Positions 3,824-59,132 of a stretch of 64,000 nt of DNA are shown one piece after another; the first letter of the stretch is position 1; each line of letters opens with the position of its first letter. The position numbers were made by a program, and so were the translations under genes. Origin of the DNA: an uncultured Gammaproteobacteria bacterium (GTDB lineage: Bacteria; Pseudomonadota; Gammaproteobacteria; GCA-001735895); contig CAWIHJ010000074.1 in the NCBI GenBank assembly GCA_963835795.1, positions 14,392 through 78,391 of the forward strand, in the 5' to 3' direction. The notes beneath the pieces were generated by a model that did no database searches, was not told the DNA's origin, and worked only from the letters and a program-made list of their open reading frames with translations.

Positions 3824-3937
3824 TTTTGCTGCTATCCCGGCCGCGGCCATGGGGCTGGTCGCACCGTGGCTGGCAGCGCTGGGCATGTCGTTGAGTTCCC
3901 TGCTGGTGGTGTTGAATGCGATGCGGCTGACGCGCTG

Positions 3938-4135
3938 ATGGAAATCATTTACCTGTTGATTCCGATTTCACTGGTCCTGCTGGGATTGATCGTATGGATC
4001 TTGTTCTGGGCAGTCCGCTCCGGGCAGTTCGACGATCTCGAAGGCCCGGCGCACAGCATCCTCATGGACGAAGAACGAATCGTCGATCGGCGCGACGATC
4101 AGGCAAAAGAAAGCCGACGAAGTGGGCCGGCTTAA
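3938..4135 (+). CDS. ccoS: cbb3-type cytochrome oxidase maturation protein CcoS/FixS
   Basis: MEIIYLLIPISLVLLGLIVWILFWAVRSGQFDDLEGPAHSILMDEE is the canonical CcoS. ATG overlaps the shifted-frame ccoI stop (TGATGG). The track ORF 3866..4135 is the same frame with a GTG start inside ccoI. Confidence 0.75.
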   Translation: MEIIYLLIPISLVLLGLIVWILFWAVRSGQFDDLEGPAHSILMDEERIVDRRDDQAKESRRSGPA

Positions 4136-28297: not shown

Positions 28298-29558
28298 TCA
28301 GGCCAGCGCGCGTTGCCGCCATTGCGGCTTGGCCAACAGGATCTGCGCGGTGCCGATGATGCGCTCTTCAAAGCCGCCCTGGCAGTAACACAGGTAGTAA
28401 TGCCACATGCGCATGAAAAATTCATCGAAGCCGAGTGCCTGCACTTCGTCGCTGGCGCGCGAGAAAGCGTTCACGCCAGATGGCGAGAGTGCGCGCATAG
28501 TCTTCGCCGATTTCCTGCATGCCCACCATCACCATATCGGTGTTGCGTTTGACCGCGGTAAACAACACTTCGTGGCCCGGCAGCGAACCGCCCGGGAAAA
28601 TATAGCGCTGGATAAAGTCGACCGAACGGCGCGCGTATTCGTAGCGTTGATCGGGTATGGTAATGGTCTGCAACAGCATCAGGCCATCGTCCTTGAGCAG
28701 CGCCGAACAGCCGCTGAAATACTGGTCGTAGTATTGATGTCCGACCGCCTCGATCATTTCCACCGACACCAGCTTGTCGAAGCTGCCTTCGAGGTTGCGA
28801 TAATCTTCCAGCAACAGCGTCACGCGGTCTTCCAGGCCTGCGTCGCGCACCCTTTGGCTTGCGATCTCGTACTGTTCGCGAGAAATGGTGGTGGTAGTGA
28901 CCCGACAGCCGTAGTGGCGGGCGGCATAGATCGCGAGCCCGCCCCAGCCAGTGCCGATTTCCAGCAGGTGATCTTCCGCTTTCAGCTCGAGCTTGCGGCA
29001 AACCACTTCGAGCTTGTGCACCGCTGCCTGTTCCAGACTGTCTTCGGGATGCTCGAAAATGGCCGCCGAATACATCATTTCGGGGTCGAGGAACAAGGCG
29101 AAAAAATCGTTGCTGAGATCGTAGTGACGCGAAATATTTGCGCGCGCCTGCTTCTCGGTGTTGCGATTCAAAAAGTGGAACAGCTTGTCACCGGCGCGTT
29201 GCAACAGGGGCGTGCCGCCATCGATCTGGTTCAGAAAATCGATATTGATACACATCAGACGCACCAGTTCGAGCAGGTTCGGGGTGGTCCATTTGCCGAG
29301 CACGTAGGCTTCGGCGCCACCCATCGAGCCGCCGAAAGCGATGTCGCGATAAGCGCTGATGTCATTGATGACCATCTTCGCGCGCACCGGGTTTTCACCC
29401 AGCGGATTGCCAAACGCGTGCGTCTCCTCGCCATCTTCGATTACCAGGTAACCGCGTGGCAAGGCCTTCAGGCGCTTGAGCAACTGGCGCCTGGCCAGGT
29501 TGCCAAACAAACCGAGGCCGGTGGAAGTGTTTATTGCAGAAGTCGTTAAGCCATTCAT
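28298..29558 (-). pseudogene. cyclopropane-fatty-acyl-phospholipid synthase-family SAM methyltransferase, frameshifted
   Basis: ORF 29558..28422 holds SAM motif LLEIGTGWGGLA and ends abnormally. ORF 28498..28298 holds the conserved C-terminus ALGFDEFFMRMWHYYLCYCQGGFEER. One-base lesion near 28470. Confidence 0.75.
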
Positions 29559-30361
29559 ATCTTGGTCTTCAGTTGGTTTGTTGTTGGTTCGTCATGCTGT
29601 TCGCGCTCCAGGGCGACAGGATGGTCGTAAACAGGGTTACGCTTGAACCACAGTTTCAGCGCCTGCCAGTAAATTAAAAACGCCACCTTGCCGGTCATCC
29701 ACGGAAACCGCAGCAACACACTGGTCAGCGCGCCGGCAGTGAGTTCACGCCTTTTCAAGGCCATGGTGGCATCCATCTGTGATTCATTATCGCGTTCGGT
29801 TTCAAGGTTCAGCGCCAGCACCTTTTGCGGCTGGTTACTGCACCAGCGATAAGTCATATCCATCGGGTTAAACGGCGAAACATGCATTTGCTTTTCAAAC
29901 TTAATACGCTGGTAGCGCTGCTTCGGATCACAGGTCAGCACGTAACTCTGGCGTTCGCCCCAGGGCGTGTTGGTGACTTCGACGACAATGTAACGCAGGG
30001 CTTCCTGCCGATCGAAGCAGTAGTAGCAGGCGATCGGATTCATGTTGAAACCGAAATATCGCCAGTTCGCCAGCAGGCGCACACTGCCCTCGTGTCTTAC
30101 CCCTGTTTCTTCCTGAATACGTTCGCACACCGCCTGCTTCAACGGCACTGCCGGATCGCCATGAAAGTCGCTGCGCTGGAATCGAGCCGGGCGAAAAGCC
30201 TTGCGCGACCAGAACGGAGAGAGTGCCAGCACCTGGTCGAGCTCGTCGAGGTCCAGGTACATCATGAAAATCGGGTAGGTGAAACAATGCGCGCGCGGCA
30301 AAAACCGGCGGTGACGCAAATATCCCTGGTAGATGGCGCTATGCATGGGCAGGGATAGCAC
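29555..30361 (-). CDS. DUF1365-family protein (UfaO-like)
   Basis: 268 aa, MHSAIYQGYLRHRRFLP... It is the conserved partner of the FAD oxidoreductase and Cfa in ChrR regulons. Confidence 0.7.
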   Translation of the reverse strand: MLSLPMHSAIYQGYLRHRRFLPRAHCFTYPIFMMYLDLDELDQVLALSPFWSRKAFRPARFQRSDFHGDPAVPLKQAVCERIQEETGVRHEGSVRLLANWRYFGFNMNPIACYYCFDRQEALRYIVVEVTNTPWGERQSYVLTCDPKQRYQRIKFEKQMHVSPFNPMDMTYRWCSNQPQKVLALNLETERDNESQMDATMALKRRELTAGALTSVLLRFPWMTGKVAFLIYWQALKLWFKRNPVYDHPVALEREQHDEPTTNQLKTKI

Positions 30362-31634: not shown

Positions 31635-32417
31635 TCAGCTTTCCGTTTTTTGCGTGCTGGTTGCCTTGTTATCCGCGGAAACGATTTTCTGCCACAGCGC
31701 AGGTGCGATTTTGGACAGCGCGAGCAGTAGCGACAGGCGCTTCGGGAAGCTGTAGGTTCGCGGGCGTGTTGCAAGCCGGGCGACAATGCGTCGCGCAGCT
31801 TCCTCGACATCCATCAGAAACGGCATGTCGAAATCATTCTTGCGCGTCAGCGGCGTATCGACGAAACCCGGGTTGACCACGCTGACATCGATTTGCTCGG
31901 GCGCGAGGTCAATCCGCAGGCTGTCACTGAAGTACTGTAACGCGGCCTTCGATGCACCGTAGGCCTCGGCGCGCGGAAACGGCGCCGCCGTTACCTGCGA
32001 TGCCACCACTACCAGTTGCGCCCGCTCATTGCTGCTGGCCCGCAAATAGGGCAGCACAAACTCGACGCAGTTGACACTGCCGAAGAAATTGACTTCCATG
32101 ACGCGTCTGACGGCCGCCCAGTCGGGGTCGGGGAAATCCAGGTATTCGCAGCTTCCAGCATTCAATATCGCCACATCGATGTGCGCCGATATCGCCGTCA
32201 TGCGTTCTCCGAGAGCTGCCATCGCTGCGGCATCGGTAATGTCGCAGGCCAGCGGCCGGATGTTCTCGCTGTGGGCCGCGAGATCGTCCAGCGCCTGCTG
32301 GTTGCGCGCGGTCGCGATCACCAGCGCGCCGCTGTTCGCCAGCTGCAGGGCCATGCTGTGACCCAGCCCACTACTGGCGCCAGTCACCCAGATTACTCGC
32401 TTTGCCGCGTTCGACAT
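31635..32417 (-). CDS. short-chain dehydrogenase/reductase (SDR)
   Basis: TGASSGLG Rossmann motif, YGASK catalytic motif. Confidence 0.8.
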   Translation of the reverse strand: MSNAAKRVIWVTGASSGLGHSMALQLANSGALVIATARNQQALDDLAAHSENIRPLACDITDAAAMAALGERMTAISAHIDVAILNAGSCEYLDFPDPDWAAVRRVMEVNFFGSVNCVEFVLPYLRASSNERAQLVVVASQVTAAPFPRAEAYGASKAALQYFSDSLRIDLAPEQIDVSVVNPGFVDTPLTRKNDFDMPFLMDVEEAARRIVARLATRPRTYSFPKRLSLLLALSKIAPALWQKIVSADNKATSTQKTES

Positions 32418-32419
32418 GA

Positions 32420-32848
32420 CTAACTCGCAAGCCGCATTTTGAGCCAGCGCGTGACGTTACCAAGCAGCGGCAATTGGTCATAAAGCATGGCGCCCATATC
32501 GTAGAAATCCTCGTGGTACTCGATCTTGTCGCCCAGTTTGAGGTGGCTCACGCCGCGCACACTGATGAGCCGGTTACCCAGGCGGGGGTGCTTGAAATGC
32601 ATCATCCATTTCACATAAGCCGCATCTTCGCCAACCTGTTCGTCGAGATACTCGAAACGGCAGTCGCTGAGGTCTGCGCACATCGAGGTGAAATAGTCCT
32701 CGAGTTCGACTAGCCCGCGGATTTCATGCACGGGATCCTTGAACACGACCTGGTCGGCGTAAAGCTCTCCCAGCCGGCTGAGATCGGCTTCGTGCAGTAG
32801 TTTGAAGTAGTTTTTGAAGTTCTCTATTAATAAGGTACTGTTGTTCAT
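32420..32848 (-). CDS. NTF2-like/SnoaL-like protein
   Basis: 142 aa. It is the first gene of the minus-strand operon downstream of the sigmaE-type promoter. Confidence 0.5.
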   Translation of the reverse strand: MNNSTLLIENFKNYFKLLHEADLSRLGELYADQVVFKDPVHEIRGLVELEDYFTSMCADLSDCRFEYLDEQVGEDAAYVKWMMHFKHPRLGNRLISVRGVSHLKLGDKIEYHEDFYDMGAMLYDQLPLLGNVTRWLKMRLAS

Positions 32849-32886
32849 TCACTGTTTCCGCGAGTTTCGTTTGTGCAATTGCTGGA

Positions 32887-32915
32887 TTATACGCGGCAAG
32901 CGGCTTTTTGGATCA
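32887..32915 (-). promoter_or_regulatory. ECF sigmaE(ChrR)-type promoter TGATCC-N16-CGTATAA for the minus-strand 8-gene operon
   Basis: Plus strand reads TTATACG-N16-GGATCA, which is the reverse complement of TGATCC-N16-CGTATAA. It sits about 35-65 bp upstream of the SnoaL-like start. Confidence 0.45.
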
Positions 32916-32920
32916 GGCAG

Positions 32921-32948
32921 TGATCCACGTCTGCAATCGGCCCGTATA
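32921..32948 (+). promoter_or_regulatory. ECF sigmaE(ChrR)-type autoregulatory promoter TGATCC-N16-CGTATA for rpoE-chrR
   Basis: TGATCC (32921-26), 16-nt spacer, CGTATA (32943-48), about 30 nt before the rpoE ATG. Matches the RpoE/ChrR-group consensus. Confidence 0.5.
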
Positions 32949-32979
32949 ATCTCCAACACTCGGACTATGAACCTATATA

Positions 32980-33567
32980 ATGGCCCTTATGACCAACAAA
33001 CGATCAGGCAATGATCAGCTGACCCTACTCAGCGAATGCCTCGCGCGCGTTGCGGAGCAACGCGACAAGGCGGCCTTCGCGCAACTGTTCGATCACTATG
33101 CACCATTGATTCGAGCTTTCAGTCTGGCCCGAGACCCCGGTGCCGACCTCGTCGCCGATGACCTGGTGCAGGAAGTCATGACGCGGGTCTGGCTCAAGGC
33201 CGACAAATATAACGTACGCCTGGCCAACCTGAACACCTGGATTTTCACCCTGGCGCGCAACTGTCGGATCGACTACCTGCGCCGCAACAGTCGCTTCGTT
33301 AGTGCGATTGATCCGACGGACATCTTTAATGACATCGAGGACGAAGGTCCCGGGCCCTTCCAGCAGGTACAACAAAATCGGGCTGGAGAAAGCGTCAGGG
33401 CAGGATTAAAACAACTACCGCGTGAACAGGCGGAAATATTAACCAAGGTTTATTTGGAGGGAAAAAGTCATCAACAAGCCAGCGACGAGCTGCAGCTGCC
33501 ACTCGGTACCGTGAAATCGCGCGTACGCCTGGCGCTGAAAAAGCTCGAAGCAGTGATTGCGAGGTAA
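32980..33567 (+). CDS. rpoE: ECF RNA polymerase sigma factor, RpoE(ChrR-partnered) group
   Basis: Sigma-70 region 2 (DLVQEVMTRVW) and region 4 (ILTKVYLEGKSHQQASDELQLPLGTVKSR). Confidence 0.85.
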   Translation: MALMTNKRSGNDQLTLLSECLARVAEQRDKAAFAQLFDHYAPLIRAFSLARDPGADLVADDLVQEVMTRVWLKADKYNVRLANLNTWIFTLARNCRIDYLRRNSRFVSAIDPTDIFNDIEDEGPGPFQQVQQNRAGESVRAGLKQLPREQAEILTKVYLEGKSHQQASDELQLPLGTVKSRVRLALKKLEAVIAR

Positions 33568-33569
33568 TC

Positions 33570-34232
33570 ATGGAAACAGCAAACAAACACCCACAAGATG
33601 AATTACTGGCAGCTTACTCGGCCGGTAGCCTGCCGCTCAGTCAGGCGCTGTGTATTTCGACTCATATCGAACACTGCGACGACTGTGCACGCAATCTGCA
33701 GCGGCTGAACCGCGTCGGCAGTGAATTGATGCAGCAATTGCATCCGGCGCCCGCTTCCGCTGCGCTCAAAGACAAATTGTTCGCACAACTTGATTCGCTC
33801 AGTGAAGATGACATCGAAACAAGCAGCGTCGATCCGGCCTCTCCAGTGCCACGCTGCCTGCAGCAATTCGTGCGCGATGGTTATGACGATTTGCCGTGGC
33901 GGCGCGTATCGCTCGCCATTCACAGCGTTGAACTGTGCCGCGACAGCAGTGGCGCCAGGGTCGAGTTGCTGAAGATCCGCCCCGGCGGTTCGGCGAATAC
34001 GCACACCCACCTCGGTGATGAATACACCGTTGTGCTCGAAGGCAGCTTTTCCGATGACGCTGGCGTCTACAGCAAAGGCGATTTCATGCTGCGTGATCAA
34101 AACGACAAACACCGACCGGTGGCGACCCAGGATCGTGAATGCATCTGCCTCGCGGTGACCGAAGGACCGATTCAGTTTACCGGTGTATTCAACCGTTTGC
34201 TGAATCCGTTGCTACGGCGCGATTTTGGGTGA
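33570..34232 (+). CDS. chrR: ChrR-family anti-sigma factor (zinc-binding, cupin C-terminal domain)
   Basis: HIEHCDDCARN zinc-binding motif (H-x3-C-x2-C). Directly follows rpoE with a 2-nt gap. Confidence 0.8.
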   Translation: METANKHPQDELLAAYSAGSLPLSQALCISTHIEHCDDCARNLQRLNRVGSELMQQLHPAPASAALKDKLFAQLDSLSEDDIETSSVDPASPVPRCLQQFVRDGYDDLPWRRVSLAIHSVELCRDSSGARVELLKIRPGGSANTHTHLGDEYTVVLEGSFSDDAGVYSKGDFMLRDQNDKHRPVATQDRECICLAVTEGPIQFTGVFNRLLNPLLRRDFG

Positions 34233-34241
34233 CGCGGTATT

Positions 34242-35211
34242 TTGATGAATCCGAATGTCGCGTCCGACACGGGCAAAATTCTGGTCGGCATCAGCAGCTG
34301 CCTGGTCGGCGAGAAAGTCCGCTTCGACGGTGGCCACAAGCAAAACCGCTACATCCTCGACACCCTGGGAAAATTCTTTCGCTTTCGGCCATTCTGTCCG
34401 GAGATGGCCATCGGCCTCGGCGTTCCGCGCGAAACCATTCGCCTGGTGTCGATCGATGGTCGTACCGAGGCCGTCGGCAACAAGAACAGCCATTTGAACT
34501 TTACCCAGGCATTAATCCAGAGCGCCGAGGACCAGGCTGACTGGCATGCGCAGATTTTCGGCTACATCGTCAAGAAAGATTCGCCGAGCTGTGGCATGGA
34601 GCGGGTCCGGGTATACCGCGGCGAACTGCCCAGCCGCGATGGCGTGGGCCTGTATACCGAAACCCTGATGCGCAACTTCCCGGCCCTGCCGGTAGAAGAA
34701 GAGGGCCGTCTCGGTGACCCCGTACTGCGCGAGAGTTTCGTCAAGCGCGTGATCATCTACAAGCGCTGGCACGACTTGCTCGAGGCCGGTCTCGACTGGC
34801 CCGGGCTAACCGACTTTCACGCTCGCCACAAGCTGATTCTCTACTCGCACAATCAGGAGCTCGGACGCAAGCTCGGGCGCGAACTCGCGGTCGCCCAGCA
34901 GCCAGCCGATTGAGACCTATGGCGCGCAATACCTGGCGCAATTGATGGCCATTCTGAAAATCAGCGCGAAACGCTCGAACCACGTCAACGTACTGGAACA
35001 CATTCGCGGTTACCTGAAGCAGGATCTCGACAAGGAAGACAAGCAGGAATTGACCGACAGCATCGAAAATTACCGGCTCGGCCTGTTACCACTGATCGTA
35101 CCGATCACCCTGCTGCGCCATCATTTTCGGCGTTACCCCGACCCCTACATCGAGCAGTCCTATTACCTGCAGCCGCATCCCGATGAACTGATGCTGCTGA
35201 ATTCGTTGTAG
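34242..35211 (+). pseudogene. ybgA: DUF523 + DUF1722 (YbgA-like) protein, frameshifted
   Basis: ORF 34242..34913 holds DUF523 and the start of DUF1722. ORF 34942..35211 holds the DUF1722 C-terminus (NVLEHIRGYLKQDL...PLIVPITLLRHH). Frame change near 34915. ybgA-phr linkage is the same as in E. coli. Confidence 0.6.
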
Positions 35212-35222
35212 AGGGCCAGTCA

Positions 35223-36651
35223 ATGAATCAACCCCTCGCCATCGCCTGGTTTCGCCAGGATCTGCGCATTCACGATAATCCGGCCTTGCGCGCCGCCGCC
35301 GAACACGATTCGGTGTTACCGATTTATATTCTGGACGACGACAACGCCGGGCACTGGGCCATGGGCGGCGCCAGCCGCGCCTGGTTGCATCATTCACTGC
35401 AGGCATTGAATCGCAGCCTGGATGGCCGCTTGCAGCTGTTCCAGGGTGATGCGCGCGCGATTATCGAGCGCCTGGTCGAAGACCACGACGTCGATGCGGT
35501 TTACTGGAATCGTTGTTACGAACCCTGGCGGGTACAGCGCGACCAGCTGATCAAGCAGGACCTGATGGAAAGTGGCGTCGACGCGCGCAGTTACAATGCG
35601 TCGCTGCTGTGGGAACCCTGGGAGGTGGCCAAGAAGGACGGTACGCCCTACCGTGTGTTTACCCCTTTTTATCAAAATGGCTGCCGCCAGGCGCAGCCCC
35701 CGCGCGCGGCGCTGCCGGCCCCGCAAAACCTGCGCTGTTTGCGACGCCGACGTCGACTTCGCGCAATCGCTACAAGCGCTGAAATTGCTACCCGAGGACC
35801 TGGATTGGCATCAGGGCCTGGTCTCAGAGTGGTCAATCGGTGAAGACGCCGCCAGCGCACAACTGCAGCAATTCTGCGAGCAAGACCTCGATGACTACAA
35901 GCGCGCGCGTGACTTCCCCGCCGTCGACGCTACTTCGCGACTGTCACCCCACCTGCACTTCGGCGAAATTTCGCCGCATCAACTGTGGCATCGCCTCGAG
36001 CACGATGGATCGCAGGCAGCGGGTGAAAATGCGGCCCACTTTCTGCGCGAAATTGCCTGGCGCGAGTTTTCCTATCACCTGCTGTATCAATTTCCGGGCC
36101 TGCCCCGCGACAATTTCAACGCCAAATTCGATCGCTTCGAATGGCGCGACGATGCTGCGGCGCTCGAGCGCTGGCAGCGCGGTCAAACCGGTTTTCCGAT
36201 CGTCGATGCCGGCATGCGCGAACTCTGGCAAACCGGTTACATGCACAACCGCGTGCGCATGATCGTTGCTTCTTTCCTGATCAAAAACCTGCTGATCCAC
36301 TGGCGCGCGGGCGCTGACTGGTTCTGGGATTGCCTGTTCGACGCCGACCTCGCCAACAACAGCGCGAGCTGGCAATGGTGTGCCGGGTCCGGGGCTGACG
36401 CCTCACCCTATTTCCGCATCTTCAACCCGGTATTGCAGAGCCAGAAATTCGATCCTGAAGGCGAGTACCTGCTGCGTTACTGTCCGGAGCTTGGCGGCTT
36501 GCCCGCGCGCCTGCGTCACCAGCCCTGGCAGGCCAGCGAGGCCCAATTACAGGAAGCCGGTATTCGTCTCGGGGAAGACTACCCGCTACCGATGGTGGAT
36601 TTGAAAGTCACGCGAGAACGCGCGTTACAACGATTCAAAGAACTCGCCTGA
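35223..36651 (+). pseudogene. phr: deoxyribodipyrimidine photolyase (CPD photolyase), frameshifted
   Basis: N-domain ORF 35223..35843 (IAWFRQDLRIHDNPAL) and FAD domain ORF 35572..36651 (WREFSYHLLYQFP, TGFPIVDAGMRELWQTGYMHNRVRMIVASFL) are in different frames. Lesion near 35745. Confidence 0.8.
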
Positions 36652-36674
36652 GCGAGCATTGGTCTGATCACCGG

Positions 36675-39206
36675 TCAGGCGGCTTCGATTTCGCGAATCT
36701 GCTGCTGGCAACGCTGCATCGCCAGCGCCATTTGTTTACCGCTTTGAAAGCGCTGGTCCGCCTCTTTCTGTAACGCCTTGTTGATCAGGCTGCTGACGCA
36801 TTTAGGCAGTTCAGCGCGAATCTCACGAATCTCGGGATGCTTTTCGTTGGCGATGTTGTACATCAGGTTGGCGATCGACTCGCCATTGAACGGCAACACA
36901 CCACAGAGCATCTGGTAAAAGGTGACGCCCAGTGAAAACAGGTCGGCGCGGCCGTCGACTTTTTTGCCTGCCAGTTGTTCGGGGGACATGTAGTACGGGC
37001 TGCCAAGGACGGTGCCGGTCTTGGTCTTGCTGGCGTCGGTCAGGCAGGCGACGCCGAAGTCGGTAATCTTGGCGATGTTTTTATCACGTCGTAAATGATG
37101 TTGGCCGGTTTGATATCGCGATGCACCACGTGTTGCTCGTGCGCATAGTCGAGTGCCATCGCGACACTGGAAATGACGCTGAACACCTGGCTTACCGGTA
37201 GCAAGGTCTTGGTGGTGCAGTAGGCGGTCAAATCCTTGCCCTTGAGATAATCCATCGCGATATAGGCGAGATCCTGTTCGTCACCGACGTCGTAAACGGT
37301 GACAATATTGGGGTGATTCAGCCGGCCTGCCGCTTCGGCTTCGCGGAAAAAGCGGGTGCGCACTTCGTCGCGCAAGTCGTCTTCGATTTCGTCAGCCAGC
37401 AACATGGTCTTGATCGCTACGGTGCGTCCGATCTTGTCGTCGTGACCGAGATACACCATGCCCATGGCGCCCCGGCCGATTTCACTGTCGATCTGGTAGC
37501 GTCCGAGCTTCGGCTTCTGCACGCCGTCCTGATCGCTGATCAAATTTTGCCCCGGGCCGCTGCTGTCGCGCCCGGCGAGCACCACGGTATTGGCGGCTTG
37601 CGTGTTTTGCGCGACGCGTTCGCTGACGTCGTTGTATTTGGCATCGTGCTGGAGAATGAACTTGAACACCGCACCCGCCTTGTTGAACTGGCGCTTGCGC
37701 TCGTAGTCCAGCCCGAGGTTGTACAGCTGGCCGAGCAAGGATTCATCGACCCGGCAATGGCGATATTTTTCGAAAGCCTGGTCGAGATTGCCCTGCGCCT
37801 GCAGTGCCATACCCAGTTGCCGGTTGGCGACAGACAACTCGTCTCGCGTACCCAACAGATGCGCCTTCACCGCCTGCCTGGTGCCGACCACCAGGTGACC
37901 CACCAACAGCATGACCACCGCGGTCATCATCGGCAACCACAGCGACTGCGTACTCATCAACAGGAAGTGCGCATTGAAAAGCATCAGCGTCAGGAACAGG
38001 CTGAGGAAAAAGGCCGTGTTGGTACGAAAACGGCCCAGTACCAGCATCAGGTAGAGCCCGAGTGCCAGGATCAAGCCCGCGCTGCGCCCAGCCCGCCCAT
38101 TCGGGAAGGCGGTATTGCTCGTTGTTGAGCAGGCTCGACACGGTGTGCGCCGAGGCGACTGTGCTGGAAATCGATTCGCCGGAAGGTGTCGGCAACAGCG
38201 ACGCCAGGCGTGGCGAGGTCAATCCGACGATGACGATTTTTTCCTTGAAGCGGTGCATGTCGACGCTGCCGTCGAGGACATCGATCAGCGAAAATACGCT
38301 AAACGCGGGTTTGCCATTGTCACCCGGGTAGTATCGCGGGTAGATCTTCATTTCGACATCTGCACCAAGATCCTTGCCACCCAGCGCCGGACTGATCTGA
38401 CTCAGGGACTCAACGTGTTCCATCGACATGCCCTTGCTGCGGGTAGTGACCATCAATGCGAATGACGGCAACACTTCGCTGCCGTACTTCACCACCAGTG
38501 GTTCGCCGTTAAAGACCGAATCTGTGACCATCACGCCAATCGCTCCGACGCGCCGGGTGAAGCTTTCCAGCGGTGGATAAATATCGCCAGCGCGGGTGAC
38601 CCCGGGTGTAGGCCAGCCAAATCCTCGACTGGCGTTGTTGACATTGACTTTATGCAAGGCGAAACGCTGCATGTATGCCGGTAGCGCAGGGGTCAAACCG
38701 GTCGCCGATTGATCGCTTTCGAGATAAGTCATGCCAAGCACGATGCGACCCGCCGATTTGAAACTAGCAGCAAGTTTGTCGTCACCGCGCAGCATCGATT
38801 CGGTCGCGCGGATGGCGCGGTTGACATTGCGGCTGAGTTTTTTCTCCTGTTTCAACACATTGCGCAGATGTGCCAATGACTGGATGCTTGACTGGTTCTG
38901 GGGATGATCGAGTGGCAGGTGGTAGCCGATGACTCGCGGACCTGCACGGCCCAGATGCAGCGTGGTTTCGGCCAGCACCTCGCGCGACCAGGGCCAGGCG
39001 CCGAGCGCCTCGATCGATTTGTCGTCGATCGCGACCACAACAATGTCTTCATGCGCTTCCTTGTTTGCGGAAAACTGCACGCCGAGGTTATAGGCCTGGT
39101 GATCAAGCGCCACAAACCATTCCGCTTCTGCGGCAAGCAGAAACAGCAGCGTGATCATCAGCCCGATGAACCAGTCGCGTTTGATCAGGGATTTCTTCAA
39201 TAACAT
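36675..39206 (-). pseudogene. CHASE2 sensor - TM - TPR - Ser/Thr protein kinase, two frameshifts
   Basis: ORF 39206..37743 is the CHASE2 domain. ORF 38074..37040 is TM helices + TPR + kinase N-lobe (GRGAMGMVYLG, VAIK, HRDIKPANI). ORF 36989..36675 is the kinase C-lobe (SPEQLAGKKVDGRADLFSLGV). Lesions near 38095 and 37043; the second is A5 where A6 would restore VIKNIAKITDFG. Confidence 0.7.
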
Positions 39207-58393: not shown

Positions 58394-58431
58394 ATTCGCA
58401 AACTATGGGGATTTTAAGGCTGATTGACGCG

Positions 58432-58791
58432 TTACGCGTTTAACCACAACAGCGTTTCCCTGAAAGCTGACCACTGTTTCACCAAATCATCCAGCCTGGC
58501 CGATACGGCCGCGCTTTTCCCACTTGCCGGCAGCGGATTCGCCGCGGCCTCCAGCAAAGCATCGACGATGGCATCGGCCTCATCAAATGTGCAGCTGACC
58601 AGGCAATAATCGTCGAATGGGTGACCCGTGTGTTTGCGCGGTTTCTCTACTTTGCCGCTCATCAGTGCGATGGCAACGAGAGCAGCCTGTTTCGCCTCGT
58701 AACGCCTAAGATAAGTCAGGGTTTCTTGCAGATCCGACACCTTGAAGGCATTCTGCTGGCAACAAATTTCCTTATACTCTAGCGAATTCAT
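58432..58791 (-). CDS. hypothetical protein (about 120 aa)
   Basis: ORF between engB and the polA-proximal sRNA candidate. Start at ATG (MNSLEYKE); the track ORF starts at TTG 58809. No motif recognised. Confidence 0.35.
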   Translation of the reverse strand: MNSLEYKEICCQQNAFKVSDLQETLTYLRRYEAKQAALVAIALMSGKVEKPRKHTGHPFDDYCLVSCTFDEADAIVDALLEAAANPLPASGKSAAVSARLDDLVKQWSAFRETLLWLNA

Positions 58792-58810
58792 CGGCGCTCT
58801 TGGCGGCAAG

Positions 58811-58840
58811 AAAAAATCCCTGGCAGAAAACTGCCAGGGA
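58811..58840 (-). terminator. rho-independent terminator on minus strand (tccctggcag-tttt-ctgccaggga + TTTTTT)
   Basis: 10-bp perfect stem and a T6 tract read on the reverse complement. Terminates transcription coming from the polA side. Confidence 0.55.
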
Positions 58841-58922
58841 TAAACGTGTGACCCGGATGGGGTTTCCGGATCGTTGTCCGCTCATAGGAGGGAGAACGGA
58901 CATAGCGCCGGGCTAAAGCGCT
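58811..58922 (-). ncRNA. candidate Spot42/ErsA-like small RNA at the conserved polA-downstream locus
   Basis: AlgU/sigmaE-type promoter GAACTA-N16-TCTAC at 58929..58955 (minus). No ORF. Intrinsic terminator at 58811..58840. About 110-nt transcript. E. coli spf and Pseudomonas ersA occupy the same position between polA and engB. Confidence 0.35.
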
Positions 58923-58928
58923 ACTTTG

Positions 58929-58955
58929 GTAGACATTCGACGCGTGGGTTAGTTC
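58929..58955 (-). promoter_or_regulatory. AlgU/RpoE-like promoter GAACTA-N16-TCTAC
   Basis: Read on the reverse complement of 58955..58929; consensus GAACTT-N16/17-TCTGA. Confidence 0.35.
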
Positions 58956-59059
58956 CGATTTCCACTACTGCAAATCCGCATCGAAAGGCGTCAATAACTA
59001 TTCATATGGGGTTTGCAGGGCACAAATCAAGTTTGCCTACGAACCGTTGTATAAATTTA

Positions 59060-59132
59060 CGCTATCCATGGGCCATTGGATCAGTTTCCGGCAAAAAAGT
59101 TTTATGCCGGATAGCCGCTATCCATGGGCCAT
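59060..59132. repeat. two copies of 17-bp direct repeat CGCTATCCATGGGCCAT (59060..59076, 59116..59132), each with near-palindromic core ATGGGCCAT
   Basis: Read in sequence. Located between the polA stop and the sRNA promoter. Confidence 0.45.

What the first reader, a model, noticed from the sequence alone, without database searches (positions are those of the whole stretch)
32887..32948. Overlapping divergent ECF sigmaE/ChrR-type promoters (TGATCC-N16-CGTATA) in a 62-bp core
The plus strand carries TGATCC-16-CGTATA about 30 nt upstream of rpoE. The minus strand carries TGATCC-16-CGTATAA (read as TTATACG-16-GGATCA on plus) upstream of the SnoaL-SDR-ufaD-DUF1365-cfa operon. The two -35/-10 pairs are offset by only about 6 bp. 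A single autoregulated ChrR-partnered sigma factor thus appears to fire both the regulator operon and the effector operon from one compact bidirectional element.
Basis: partly seen in the sequence, partly recalled or inferred. Interest (0 to 1): 0.6.

Follow-up and report, generated by a model that had tools for sequence, protein, structure and literature searches.

The report
Back-to-back sigmaE/ChrR stress promoters
Two mirror-image promoters for a ChrR-partnered stress sigma factor sit back to back between the sigma-factor genes and a furan-fatty-acid-type lipid operon; the motifs are real and conserved, but the layout is already known from Rhodobacter, Shewanella and Pseudomonas.

Summary
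TGATCC-N16-CGTATAAT lies on the plus strand at 32921-32950. The same motif lies on the minus strand at 32915-32886. The two -35 hexamers are 5 bp apart. The core elements are back to back, not overlapping.

Exact TGATCC-N16-CGTA occurs 4 times in the window against 0.13 expected. In 67 related loci (sigma 39-82% identical) the four boxes are kept while the spacers diverge. There are 140 exact sites in 522 kb against about 1 expected. In the close clade the gap between hexamers stays at 3-8 bp.

The flanking genes fit the known system. The sigma's best solved-structure match is R. sphaeroides RpoE. ChrR passes its NCBIfam cut-off and keeps all eight zinc ligands. The divergent operon reads SnoaL-SDR-UfaD-like-DUF1365(UfaO-like)-CMAS.

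Published work establishes this consensus, rpoE-chrR autoregulation and a divergent sigmaE-dependent RSP1091-1087 operon.

The extra findings were:
- a conserved third sigmaE-type promoter inside the DUF1365 coding sequence (29905-29930), held by synonymous-codon constraint;
- an unconserved orphan site at 59058-59083, next to a conserved sRNA-like element.

No transcription data exist for this organism.

The parts
32886..32893 (-). -10 element CGTATAAT of the divergent (effector-operon) promoter
   Evidence: Sequence read. ATACG is invariant in a 12-locus alignment. The logo is CGTAtaaa over 63 promoters.
32910..32915 (-). -35 element TGATCC of the divergent promoter, followed by a conserved AAA
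   Evidence: TGGATCA is invariant.
32916..32920 (.). 5-bp gap (GGCAG) between the two -35 hexamers
   Evidence: In 40 of 41 close-clade loci that carry both sites the gap is 3-8 bp, most often 5-6. The gap sequence itself is not conserved.
32921..32926 (+). -35 element TGATCC of the rpoE-chrR promoter, preceded by a conserved G at 32920
   Evidence: The logo is GTGATCCa over 64 promoters.
32943..32950 (+). -10 element CGTATAAT of the rpoE-chrR promoter
   Evidence: CGTA is invariant, at exactly N16.
32980..33567 (+). ECF sigma factor (RpoE of the ECF11/ChrR-partnered type). Met4 at 32989 is the invariant candidate start.
   Evidence: Pfam Sigma70_r2 plus r4_2. The best PDB hit is R. sphaeroides RpoE 2Q1Z_A at E 1e-28; the next ECF sigma is at 4e-14. 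Met4 is invariant.
33570..34232 (+). ChrR anti-sigma factor (zinc-binding anti-sigma domain plus cupin domain)
   Evidence: TIGR02451 scores 186.5 bits against a cut-off of 124.5. PDB 2Z2S_B matches at E 1e-31. The ligand positions H7, H32, C36, C39 and H145, H147, E151, H181 are all conserved (ligand list from PMC6852236).
34242..36651 (+). Downstream genes probably co-transcribed with rpoE-chrR: a DUF523+DUF1722 (YbgA-like) gene and a DNA photolyase. Each is split into two frames in this window.
   Evidence: Pfam results. The first gene starts 10 bp after chrR. There is no sigmaE-type site upstream, even with 1 mismatch. The same gene order is seen in most of the closest relatives.
32420..32848 (-). 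First gene of the divergent operon: SnoaL_2 family protein
   Evidence: It is syntenic in 58 of 67 loci.
31635..32417 (-). Short-chain dehydrogenase (RSP1087 / PSPTO_1119-type)
   Evidence: The homology table is in PMC5507510.
30339..31631 (-). FAD amine-oxidase family protein of 430 aa, UfaD-like (RSP1091-type fatty-acyl desaturase)
   Evidence: Pfam Amino_oxidase. RSP1091 is also 430 aa (PMC3546557) and is UfaD (PMC7380195). Homology to RSP1091 itself was not tested.
29555..30361 (-). DUF1365 protein, UfaO-like
   Evidence: Pfam DUF1365 at 263 bits. UfaO (RSP1090) is a DUF1365 protein (PMC7380195).
29905..29930 (-). Third, intragenic sigmaE-type promoter TGATCC-N16-CGTA inside the DUF1365 coding sequence, about 345 nt upstream of the CMAS gene
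   Evidence: Exact site. It sits at homologous codons in 21 loci. Synonymous codons are fixed there. TGT at Cys144 is 0.89, rank 1 of 21 conserved Cys columns. CGT at Arg152 is 0.89, rank 1 of 76 Arg columns (median 0.37). GAT at Asp145 is 0.86, rank 3 of 58.
28422..29558 (-). Cyclopropane-fatty-acyl-phospholipid-synthase-family methyltransferase (UfaM/Cfa-like)
   Evidence: Pfam CMAS at 265 bits. It falls below the NCBIfam Cfa equivalog cut-offs. The ufaD-ufaO-ufaM order matches R. palustris RPA2571-2569 (PMC7380195).
26411..28273 (-). Distal operon genes: DUF2878, a 271-aa protein with no family hit, and DUF3833
   Evidence: The genes overlap or lie closely spaced on the same strand.
59058..59083 (-). 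Orphan fourth exact TGATCC-N16-CGTA site in the polA/engB intergenic region. Its membership of the regulon is doubtful.
   Evidence: 21.4 bits. It is not conserved in five relatives. Its spacer is one copy of a local 17-nt duplication.

Best explanation
The 65-bp core (32886-32950) holds two back-to-back promoters for the ECF11-type sigma factor encoded immediately downstream. When stress inactivates or degrades the zinc anti-sigma factor ChrR, free sigmaE-RNA polymerase would bind TGATCC-N16-CGTA on both strands. The rightward promoter transcribes rpoE-chrR, giving positive autoregulation, and probably also the YbgA-like and photolyase genes behind them. The leftward promoter transcribes the SnoaL-SDR-UfaD-like-UfaO-like-CMAS lipid-modification operon. 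A third sigmaE-type promoter embedded in the UfaO-like coding sequence probably boosts the distal methyltransferase genes.

Shown here: the motifs, their statistical excess, their deep conservation with divergent spacers, the identity of the sigma/anti-sigma pair, and the synteny.

Taken from published work on homologues: that this motif is the sigmaE promoter, and that both divergent operons are sigmaE-dependent.

Inferred: start sites, induction by singlet oxygen or peroxide in this organism, and whether two polymerases can occupy the element at once. With hexamers 5 bp apart, each -35 lies at about -42 to -47 of the other promoter.
For: - Motif excess in the window: 4 sites against 0.13 expected. 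The PWM separates sites from noise, at 21 bits or more against 13.7 or less in shuffles.
- Related loci: 140 exact sites in 522 kb against about 1 expected.
- In the close clade, 42 loci have upstream sequence. Both promoters match at 9 or more of 10 core positions in 41 of them, always with N16, and the spacers are unrelated in sequence.
- In more distant families, both promoters are found in 20 of 24 loci.
- In the alignment, the invariant columns upstream of the rpoE start region are exactly ATACG, TGGATCA, GTGATCC and CGTA.
- Six loci have a different divergent operon and still keep both motifs.
- No sigma70-type promoter was found in the intergenic region.
- Sigma and ChrR identity.
Against: - There are no transcript, start-site or binding data for this organism or its relatives, which are all uncultured MAGs.
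- The related sequences are not independent samples, although their spacers are saturated with changes.
- Both -10 elements read CGTATAAT and so contain a perfect sigma70 -10 hexamer. Some housekeeping-sigma activity cannot be excluded.
- The window carries at least three split genes within 4 kb, so the sequence may contain indel errors. Both spacers nevertheless match the N16 seen in relatives.
- Co-transcription of the photolyase genes rests only on the absence of another site and of a terminator.
Confidence: 0.85

Rival explanations
1. The inverted repeat TGGATCA-N5-TGATCCA is an operator for a dimeric transcription factor that controls both operons, rather than two -35 elements.
For: The arms are a perfect 7-nt palindrome with a 5-bp centre. 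Divergent operons are often controlled from a central operator.
Against: The arm-to-arm spacing varies from 3 to 8 bp within the close clade and from 4 to 200 bp in more distant families. That is incompatible with a fixed dimer site. Each arm is always accompanied by CGTA at exactly 16 nt on its own side. The same half-site plus CGTA also occurs singly inside the DUF1365 gene. The motif is the published sigmaE promoter (PMC5507510, PMC4336711).
Confidence: 0.03
2. Only the rpoE-side promoter is functional. The minus-strand copy would be a by-product of an inverted duplication, and the effector operon would be driven from elsewhere.
For: In L042 the two promoters are exact inverted copies, spacer included. 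This shows that inverted duplication or gene conversion happens at this locus.
Against: The minus-strand boxes are as conserved as the plus-strand ones across 60 or more loci, while their spacers have diverged completely. No alternative promoter is detectable in the 131-bp intergenic region. The homologous R. sphaeroides operon has its own RpoE-dependent promoter (PMC3818230).
Confidence: 0.05
3. Transcription is driven mainly by the housekeeping sigma through the TATAAT hexamers. Two are embedded in the CGTATAAT boxes. A third lies at 32976-32981, 7 nt before the Met4 ATG, and could give a leaderless rpoE mRNA.
For: All three hexamers are perfect TATAAT. The third is conserved in about 20 of the closest loci, at a fixed 7 nt from the invariant Met4 codon, with a conserved ...ACA 17 nt upstream.
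Against: There is no acceptable -35 for the two outer hexamers (2 of 6 matches, read from the sequence), and the consensus scan finds nothing. Beyond CGTA the logo is only 50-80% conserved. Sub-clades lacking the third TATAAT keep the sigmaE boxes. At most this adds a basal promoter; it does not replace the sigmaE promoters.
Confidence: 0.07

Closest known systems
Rhodobacter sphaeroides rpoE P1 / RSP1091 promoter pair (sigmaE-ChrR, ECF11)
   Same: - The same sigma/anti-sigma pair: both are the best PDB hits.
- The same promoter consensus, TGATCC(N15)GCGTA (PMC5036791).
- The same logic: an autoregulated rpoE-chrR operon, and a divergently transcribed operon containing ufaD (RSP1091) and ufaO (RSP1090, DUF1365). 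Both are preceded by RpoE-dependent promoters (PMC3818230, PMC3546557, PMC7380195).
   Different: - Here the divergent operon begins with SnoaL and SDR genes.
- It also carries the CMAS (ufaM-like) gene, which in R. sphaeroides lies elsewhere, next to the photolyase gene (RSP2143-2144).
- Here the photolyase sits behind chrR.
- The hexamer gap here is 5 bp. In R. sphaeroides a primer starting 99 bp upstream of RSP_1091 carries GGATCA at about -90 to -85, while the RSP_1091 promoter lies within 64 bp.
Shewanella oneidensis RpoE2-ChrR regulon
   Same: The promoter motifs are TGATCC-N16-CGTA(A/T)T, with start sites mapped downstream. Both rpoE2 (SO_1986) and the adjacent SO_1987 carry such promoters and are induced by RpoE2. 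A ybgA-phrB-...-cfa operon belongs to the regulon (PMC4336711).
   Different: The neighbouring target there is a Lon-domain protease, not the lipid operon. The lipid and photolyase genes form a separate operon with its own promoter.
Pseudomonas syringae PSPTO_1043/1042 regulon
   Same: The ChIP-seq consensus TGATCCnnnnnnnnnnnnnnnnCGTA is identical. The effector gene order SDR - amine oxidase - DUF1365 - cfa (PSPTO_1119-1116) matches the window (PMC5507510).
   Different: The regulator and effector operons lie at separate loci, so there is no bidirectional element. The effector operon starts with phrB.

Membership tests
ECF11 (sigmaE-ChrR) regulatory system | Group IV sigma with only regions 2 and 4, closest to R. 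sphaeroides RpoE | tested here: met
   Pfam Sigma70_r2 plus Sigma70_r4_2. PDB 2Q1Z_A matches at E 1e-28, against 4e-14 for the next ECF sigma.
ECF11 (sigmaE-ChrR) regulatory system | Adjacent, co-oriented ChrR anti-sigma factor with an N-terminal zinc anti-sigma domain (H, HxxxCxxC) and a C-terminal cupin domain with H, H, E, H ligands | tested here: met
   chrR starts 3 nt after the rpoE stop. TIGR02451 scores 186.5 bits against a cut-off of 124.5. Cupin_7 is present. H7, H32, C36, C39 and H145, H147, E151, H181 align with the R. sphaeroides ligands (PMC6852236).
ECF11 (sigmaE-ChrR) regulatory system | TGATCC-N16-CGTA promoter upstream of rpoE (autoregulation) | tested here: met
   The motif is at 32921-32946 and is conserved in 60 or more loci. 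This is the sequence criterion only; autoregulation itself was not tested.
ECF11 (sigmaE-ChrR) regulatory system | Core regulon genes (ufaD/RSP1091, ufaO/RSP1090, cfa-family methyltransferase, photolyase) carrying the promoter | tested here: met
   The divergent operon carries the motif. The photolyase has no promoter of its own but lies downstream of chrR. Family-level assignments only were made. Orthology to the R. sphaeroides proteins was not tested directly.
ECF11 (sigmaE-ChrR) regulatory system | Induction by singlet oxygen or organic peroxide through ChrR inactivation or turnover | not testable with these tools
   This needs experiments in the organism or in a heterologous host.
Bidirectional (back-to-back divergent) bacterial promoter | Two start sites on opposite strands within about 100 bp, with non-overlapping core elements | tested here: inconclusive
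   The core elements are 5 bp apart and do not overlap. Predicted start sites are about 70 bp apart. No start-site data exist.
Furan fatty acid pathway (UfaM-UfaD-UfaO) | A SAM methylase of the CFA-synthase family, an FAD desaturase of the amine-oxidase family, and a DUF1365 oxygenase encoded together | tested here: met
   Pfam CMAS, Amino_oxidase and DUF1365 lie in one operon. The same ufaD-ufaO-ufaM order is seen in R. palustris (PMC7380195). Enzyme activities were not tested.

The most novel reading that the evidence does not exclude
Two features would be functional adaptations rather than mere compaction.

First, the tightly held 3-8 bp gap between the two -35 hexamers in this clade would make two sigmaE holoenzymes bind either cooperatively or mutually exclusively. 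That would set a fixed ratio, or a stochastic choice, between making more regulator and making effector enzymes.

Second, the sigmaE promoter embedded in the UfaO-like coding sequence, held by selection on synonymous codons, would be a separate control point for the distal methyltransferase.
Probability: 0.2. Interest if true: 0.45.

Novelty: new member of a known kind. Interest (0 to 1): 0.25.

Why it matters
The result extends the well-studied sigmaE-ChrR photo-oxidative stress circuit to a clade of uncultured marine-sediment and symbiont Gammaproteobacteria. These relatives include the Olavius algarvensis Gamma 3 symbiont lineage.

It also shows the most compact form of the regulator/effector promoter pair seen in this data set. 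The whole core regulon (regulator, photolyase and furan-fatty-acid-type genes) is gathered around a single 65-bp element.

In practical terms, it gives a clean 65-bp bidirectional ECF promoter and a well-supported example of a promoter kept inside a coding sequence by synonymous constraint. It does not change understanding of how the system works.

Tried and rejected
- **Rfam.** At gathering thresholds over the whole window it found nothing.
- **Plasmid search.** A blastn of the locus gave only a marginal Azospirillum hit.
- **Source contig.** Two exact-protein look-ups for the source contig failed.
- **Dufour et al. 2008.** This paper (PMC2579311) defines the core regulon but is not held. It is cited only through papers that summarise it.
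- **R. sphaeroides intergenic sequence.** The geometry there was inferred only from primer data.
- **Relaxed motif search.** Allowing 1 mismatch added 5 sites against 3.2 expected, so no further regulon members can be claimed.
- **sigma70 scan.** A consensus scan of the intergenic region found nothing.
- **Operator hypothesis.** It was rejected because the spacing varies.
- **Orphan site at 59058.** It was tested for conservation in polA-engB regions of relatives and was not conserved.
- **Binomial codon test.** The simple test showed some bias at a control arginine as well. It was therefore replaced by an empirical ranking against all conserved Cys, Asp and Arg columns.
- **Literature.** A search found no paper describing a bidirectional or back-to-back ChrR-type promoter as such.

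Full report
**1. The observation**

- Plus strand: TGATCC at 32921-32926, a 16-nt spacer, and CGTATAAT at 32943-32950.
- Minus strand: TGATCC as the complement of 32915-32910, a 16-nt spacer, and CGTATAAT as the complement of 32893-32886.
- Five base pairs (32916-32920) separate the two -35 hexamers.
- The element is a dyad, with arms GATTATACG/CGTATAATC and TGGATCA/TGATCCA.

The core elements therefore do not overlap. They are back to back.

The motif is far more frequent than chance allows.
- Exact TGATCC-N16-CGTA occurs four times in the 64-kb window against 0.13 expected, and none of 100 shuffles reaches four.
- Widening the spacer to 15-18 nt adds nothing.
- Allowing one mismatch adds only a chance-level number of sites.
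- A weight matrix built from related loci puts the four sites at 21-32 bits, with shuffles peaking at 13.7.

**2. The genes around it**

To the right lie two genes.
- An ECF sigma factor at 32980-33567 has Sigma70 regions 2 and 4.
- Its best solved relative is R. sphaeroides RpoE (2Q1Z_A, E 1e-28), well ahead of the next ECF sigma at 4e-14.
- Three bases later comes ChrR at 33570-34232. It scores 186.5 bits on TIGR02451 against a cut-off of 124.5.
- It matches R. sphaeroides ChrR (2Z2S_B) at E 1e-31.

All eight published zinc ligands have counterparts. They are H7, H32, C36 and C39 in the anti-sigma domain, and H145, H147, E151 and H181 in the cupin domain (ligand list in PMC6852236).

Ten bases after chrR come a DUF523+DUF1722 (YbgA-like) gene and a DNA photolyase. 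No sigmaE-type site lies upstream of them and there is no convincing terminator. They are probably part of the same transcript.

To the left, on the minus strand, the operon reads as follows:
- SnoaL_2
- short-chain dehydrogenase
- a 430-aa amine-oxidase-family protein
- DUF1365
- a cyclopropane-fatty-acid-synthase-family methyltransferase
- DUF2878
- an unassigned 271-aa protein
- DUF3833

The amine-oxidase, DUF1365 and methyltransferase trio corresponds, at family level, to UfaD, UfaO and UfaM of the furan fatty acid pathway. It is in the same order as in R. palustris (PMC7380195).

**3. Comparative evidence**

A scan of one genome per species found 67 loci that encode a relative of the sigma factor, at 39-82% identity. 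Nearly all are uncultured marine Gammaproteobacteria. The set also includes the Olavius algarvensis Gamma 3 symbiont, Cellvibrionaceae and Granulosicoccaceae.

The SnoaL-led operon is divergent from rpoE-chrR in 58 of the 67 loci.

These loci hold 140 exact TGATCC-N16-CGTA sites in 522 kb, where about one is expected. The sites fall as follows:
- about 110 in the few hundred bases upstream of rpoE;
- 22 inside the DUF1365 gene;
- seven elsewhere.

In the close clade (sigma 64% identical or more), 42 loci have upstream sequence. Of these, 41 carry both promoters at 9 or more of 10 core positions, always with a 16-nt spacer. The spacer sequences are unrelated. In the more distant families both promoters are found in 20 of 24 loci.

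A 12-locus alignment shows invariant columns at ATACG, TGGATCA, GTGATCC and CGTA. The only other invariant columns are the rpoE ATG. The derived logos are GTGATCCa-N15-CGTAtaa on the rpoE side and TGATCCaaa-N13-CGTAtaaa on the divergent side.

Six loci have a different divergent operon, a distant methyltransferase plus DUF2878. They still keep both motifs.

**4. Geometry**

In the close clade the gap between the -35 hexamers is 3 to 8 bp in 40 of 41 loci, as it is in the window (5 bp). Counting the window, the values are 3 bp (5), 4 bp (6), 5 bp (10), 6 bp (15), 7 bp (4) and 8 bp (1), with one outlier at 34 bp. In Cellvibrionaceae and Granulosicoccaceae the gap ranges from 4 to 200 bp.

Two conclusions follow. 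First, variable spacing rules out a fixed dimeric operator. Second, the tight gap is a feature of this clade and not a requirement of the system.

With a 5-bp gap, each -35 hexamer lies at about -42 to -47 of the other promoter. That is where the alpha C-terminal domains of the polymerase would normally sit. This point is an inference from general knowledge of RNA polymerase footprints. Whether two holoenzymes help or exclude one another at this element is unknown.

**5. What is already known**

- The consensus TGATCC-N16-CGTA was defined by ChIP-seq and expression assays for P. syringae PSPTO_1043 (PMC5507510).
- In Shewanella, start sites were mapped for RpoE2. There rpoE2 and the neighbouring SO_1987 both carry the motif and both respond to RpoE2 (PMC4336711).
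- In R. sphaeroides the motif is written TGATCC(N15)GCGTA (PMC5036791).
- In R. sphaeroides the RSP1091-1087 operon is 'divergently transcribed from rpoE-chrR' and belongs to the conserved core regulon (PMC3546557, PMC6852236).

What this window adds is a new lineage, a very compact arrangement, and the gathering of the photolyase and lipid genes around one element.

**6. A third promoter inside a coding sequence**

The exact site at 29905-29930 (minus strand) lies within the DUF1365 gene, about 345 nt upstream of the methyltransferase gene. It falls on codons Cys-Asp-Pro ... Gln-Arg-Ile. The full motif is present at the homologous codons in 21 related loci.

Codon choice at this site is unusually fixed.
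- TGT is used in 39 of 44 loci, GAT in 32 of 37, and CGT in 31 of 35. The background share of CGT among arginine codons is 0.20.
- The next codon begins with A in 30 of 31 loci, even where the amino acid differs.
- The sequences are related, so I ranked these columns against all conserved Cys, Asp and Arg columns of seven proteins from the same loci. Cys144 ranks 1 of 21. Arg152 ranks 1 of 76, at 0.89 fixation against a median of 0.37. Asp145 ranks 3 of 58.

This is good evidence for selection on the DNA itself, and so for a functional internal sigmaE-type promoter.

A plasmid description in PMC7380195 mentions a 'potential promoter of RSP1089' retained within RSP1090. That hints at something similar in R. 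sphaeroides. Its position appears to differ, and I could not compare the sequences.

**7. The fourth site**

The site at 59058-59083 (minus strand) lies between polA and engB.
- It sits about 90 nt upstream of a conserved non-coding element of roughly 150 nt that ends in a strong terminator.
- The site itself is absent from five relatives. The closest has AGATCC-N15-CGTT.
- Its spacer is one copy of a local 17-nt duplication.
- One extra site by chance has a probability of roughly 0.1.

I do not count it as a regulon member, although a sigmaE-driven small RNA has a precedent in Pos19 (PMC5036791).

**8. Verdict**

The feature is a new member of a known kind. Confidence that both motifs are functional sigmaE-dependent promoters is about 0.85. 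The remaining uncertainty is the complete lack of transcript data. Interest is modest. A specialist would find the arrangement expected, with two points worth a small experiment: the constrained 3-8 bp geometry and the coding-sequence promoter.

Noticed in passing
window 29905-29930 (-): An exact sigmaE-type promoter motif lies inside the DUF1365 (UfaO-like) coding sequence, upstream of the CMAS gene. It is conserved at homologous codons in 21 loci, with the strongest synonymous-codon fixation of any Cys or Arg column tested.
   Followed up: yes
window 58808-58962 (-): A non-coding element lies between engB and polA. It is 87-95% identical at the nucleotide level in relatives whose EngB protein is only 73-87% identical. 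It folds into four hairpins, including a CU-rich (UCCCUCCU) loop and an 11-bp terminator stem. The only Rfam match is a sub-threshold hit to anti-hemB (RF02837, 30.8 bits against a gathering score of 49.5), and it is not Spot 42. It is a candidate small RNA.
   Followed up: partly
window 59058-59083 (-), with repeats at 59060-59076 and 59116-59132: A fourth exact TGATCC-N16-CGTA site lies about 90 nt upstream of that element. It is not conserved in relatives, and its spacer is one copy of a 17-nt direct repeat, ATGGCCCATGGATAGCG.
   Followed up: partly
window 58394-58810: About 420 nt lie between engB and the conserved RNA-like element and are absent from relatives. The stretch carries a 125-aa ORF (58432-58809, -) with no family hit and no tblastn match in related loci. 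It may be an insertion or a spurious ORF.
   Followed up: partly
window 34242-38074: Three genes are each split into two reading frames within 4 kb. They are DUF523+DUF1722 (34242-34913 / 34942-35211), the photolyase (35223-35843 / 35572-36651) and a Ser/Thr kinase (37040-38074 / 36675-36989, minus strand). Relatives have the photolyase in a single frame. The cause is either assembly indel errors or pseudogenes.
   Followed up: partly
window 32976-32991 (+): A perfect TATAAT overlaps the first in-frame ATG of rpoE and sits exactly 7 nt before the invariant Met4 ATG. It is conserved in about 20 of the closest loci, with a conserved ...ACA 17 nt upstream. It could be a basal sigma70 -10 element giving a leaderless rpoE mRNA, or an AU-rich translation signal. 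This is unresolved.
   Followed up: partly
L042, about 3910-3965 (upstream of rpoE at 4001): The two divergent promoters are exact inverted copies, including their 16-nt spacers, and form a 56-bp near-perfect palindrome. This suggests inverted duplication or gene conversion between the two promoters.
   Followed up: no
L001, L006, L014, L017, L026, L036 (upstream of rpoE): In these loci the divergent operon is not the SnoaL-UfaD-UfaO set. It is a distant CMAS-like methyltransferase (27-32% identity) plus DUF2878. Both sigmaE-type motifs are retained.
   Followed up: no
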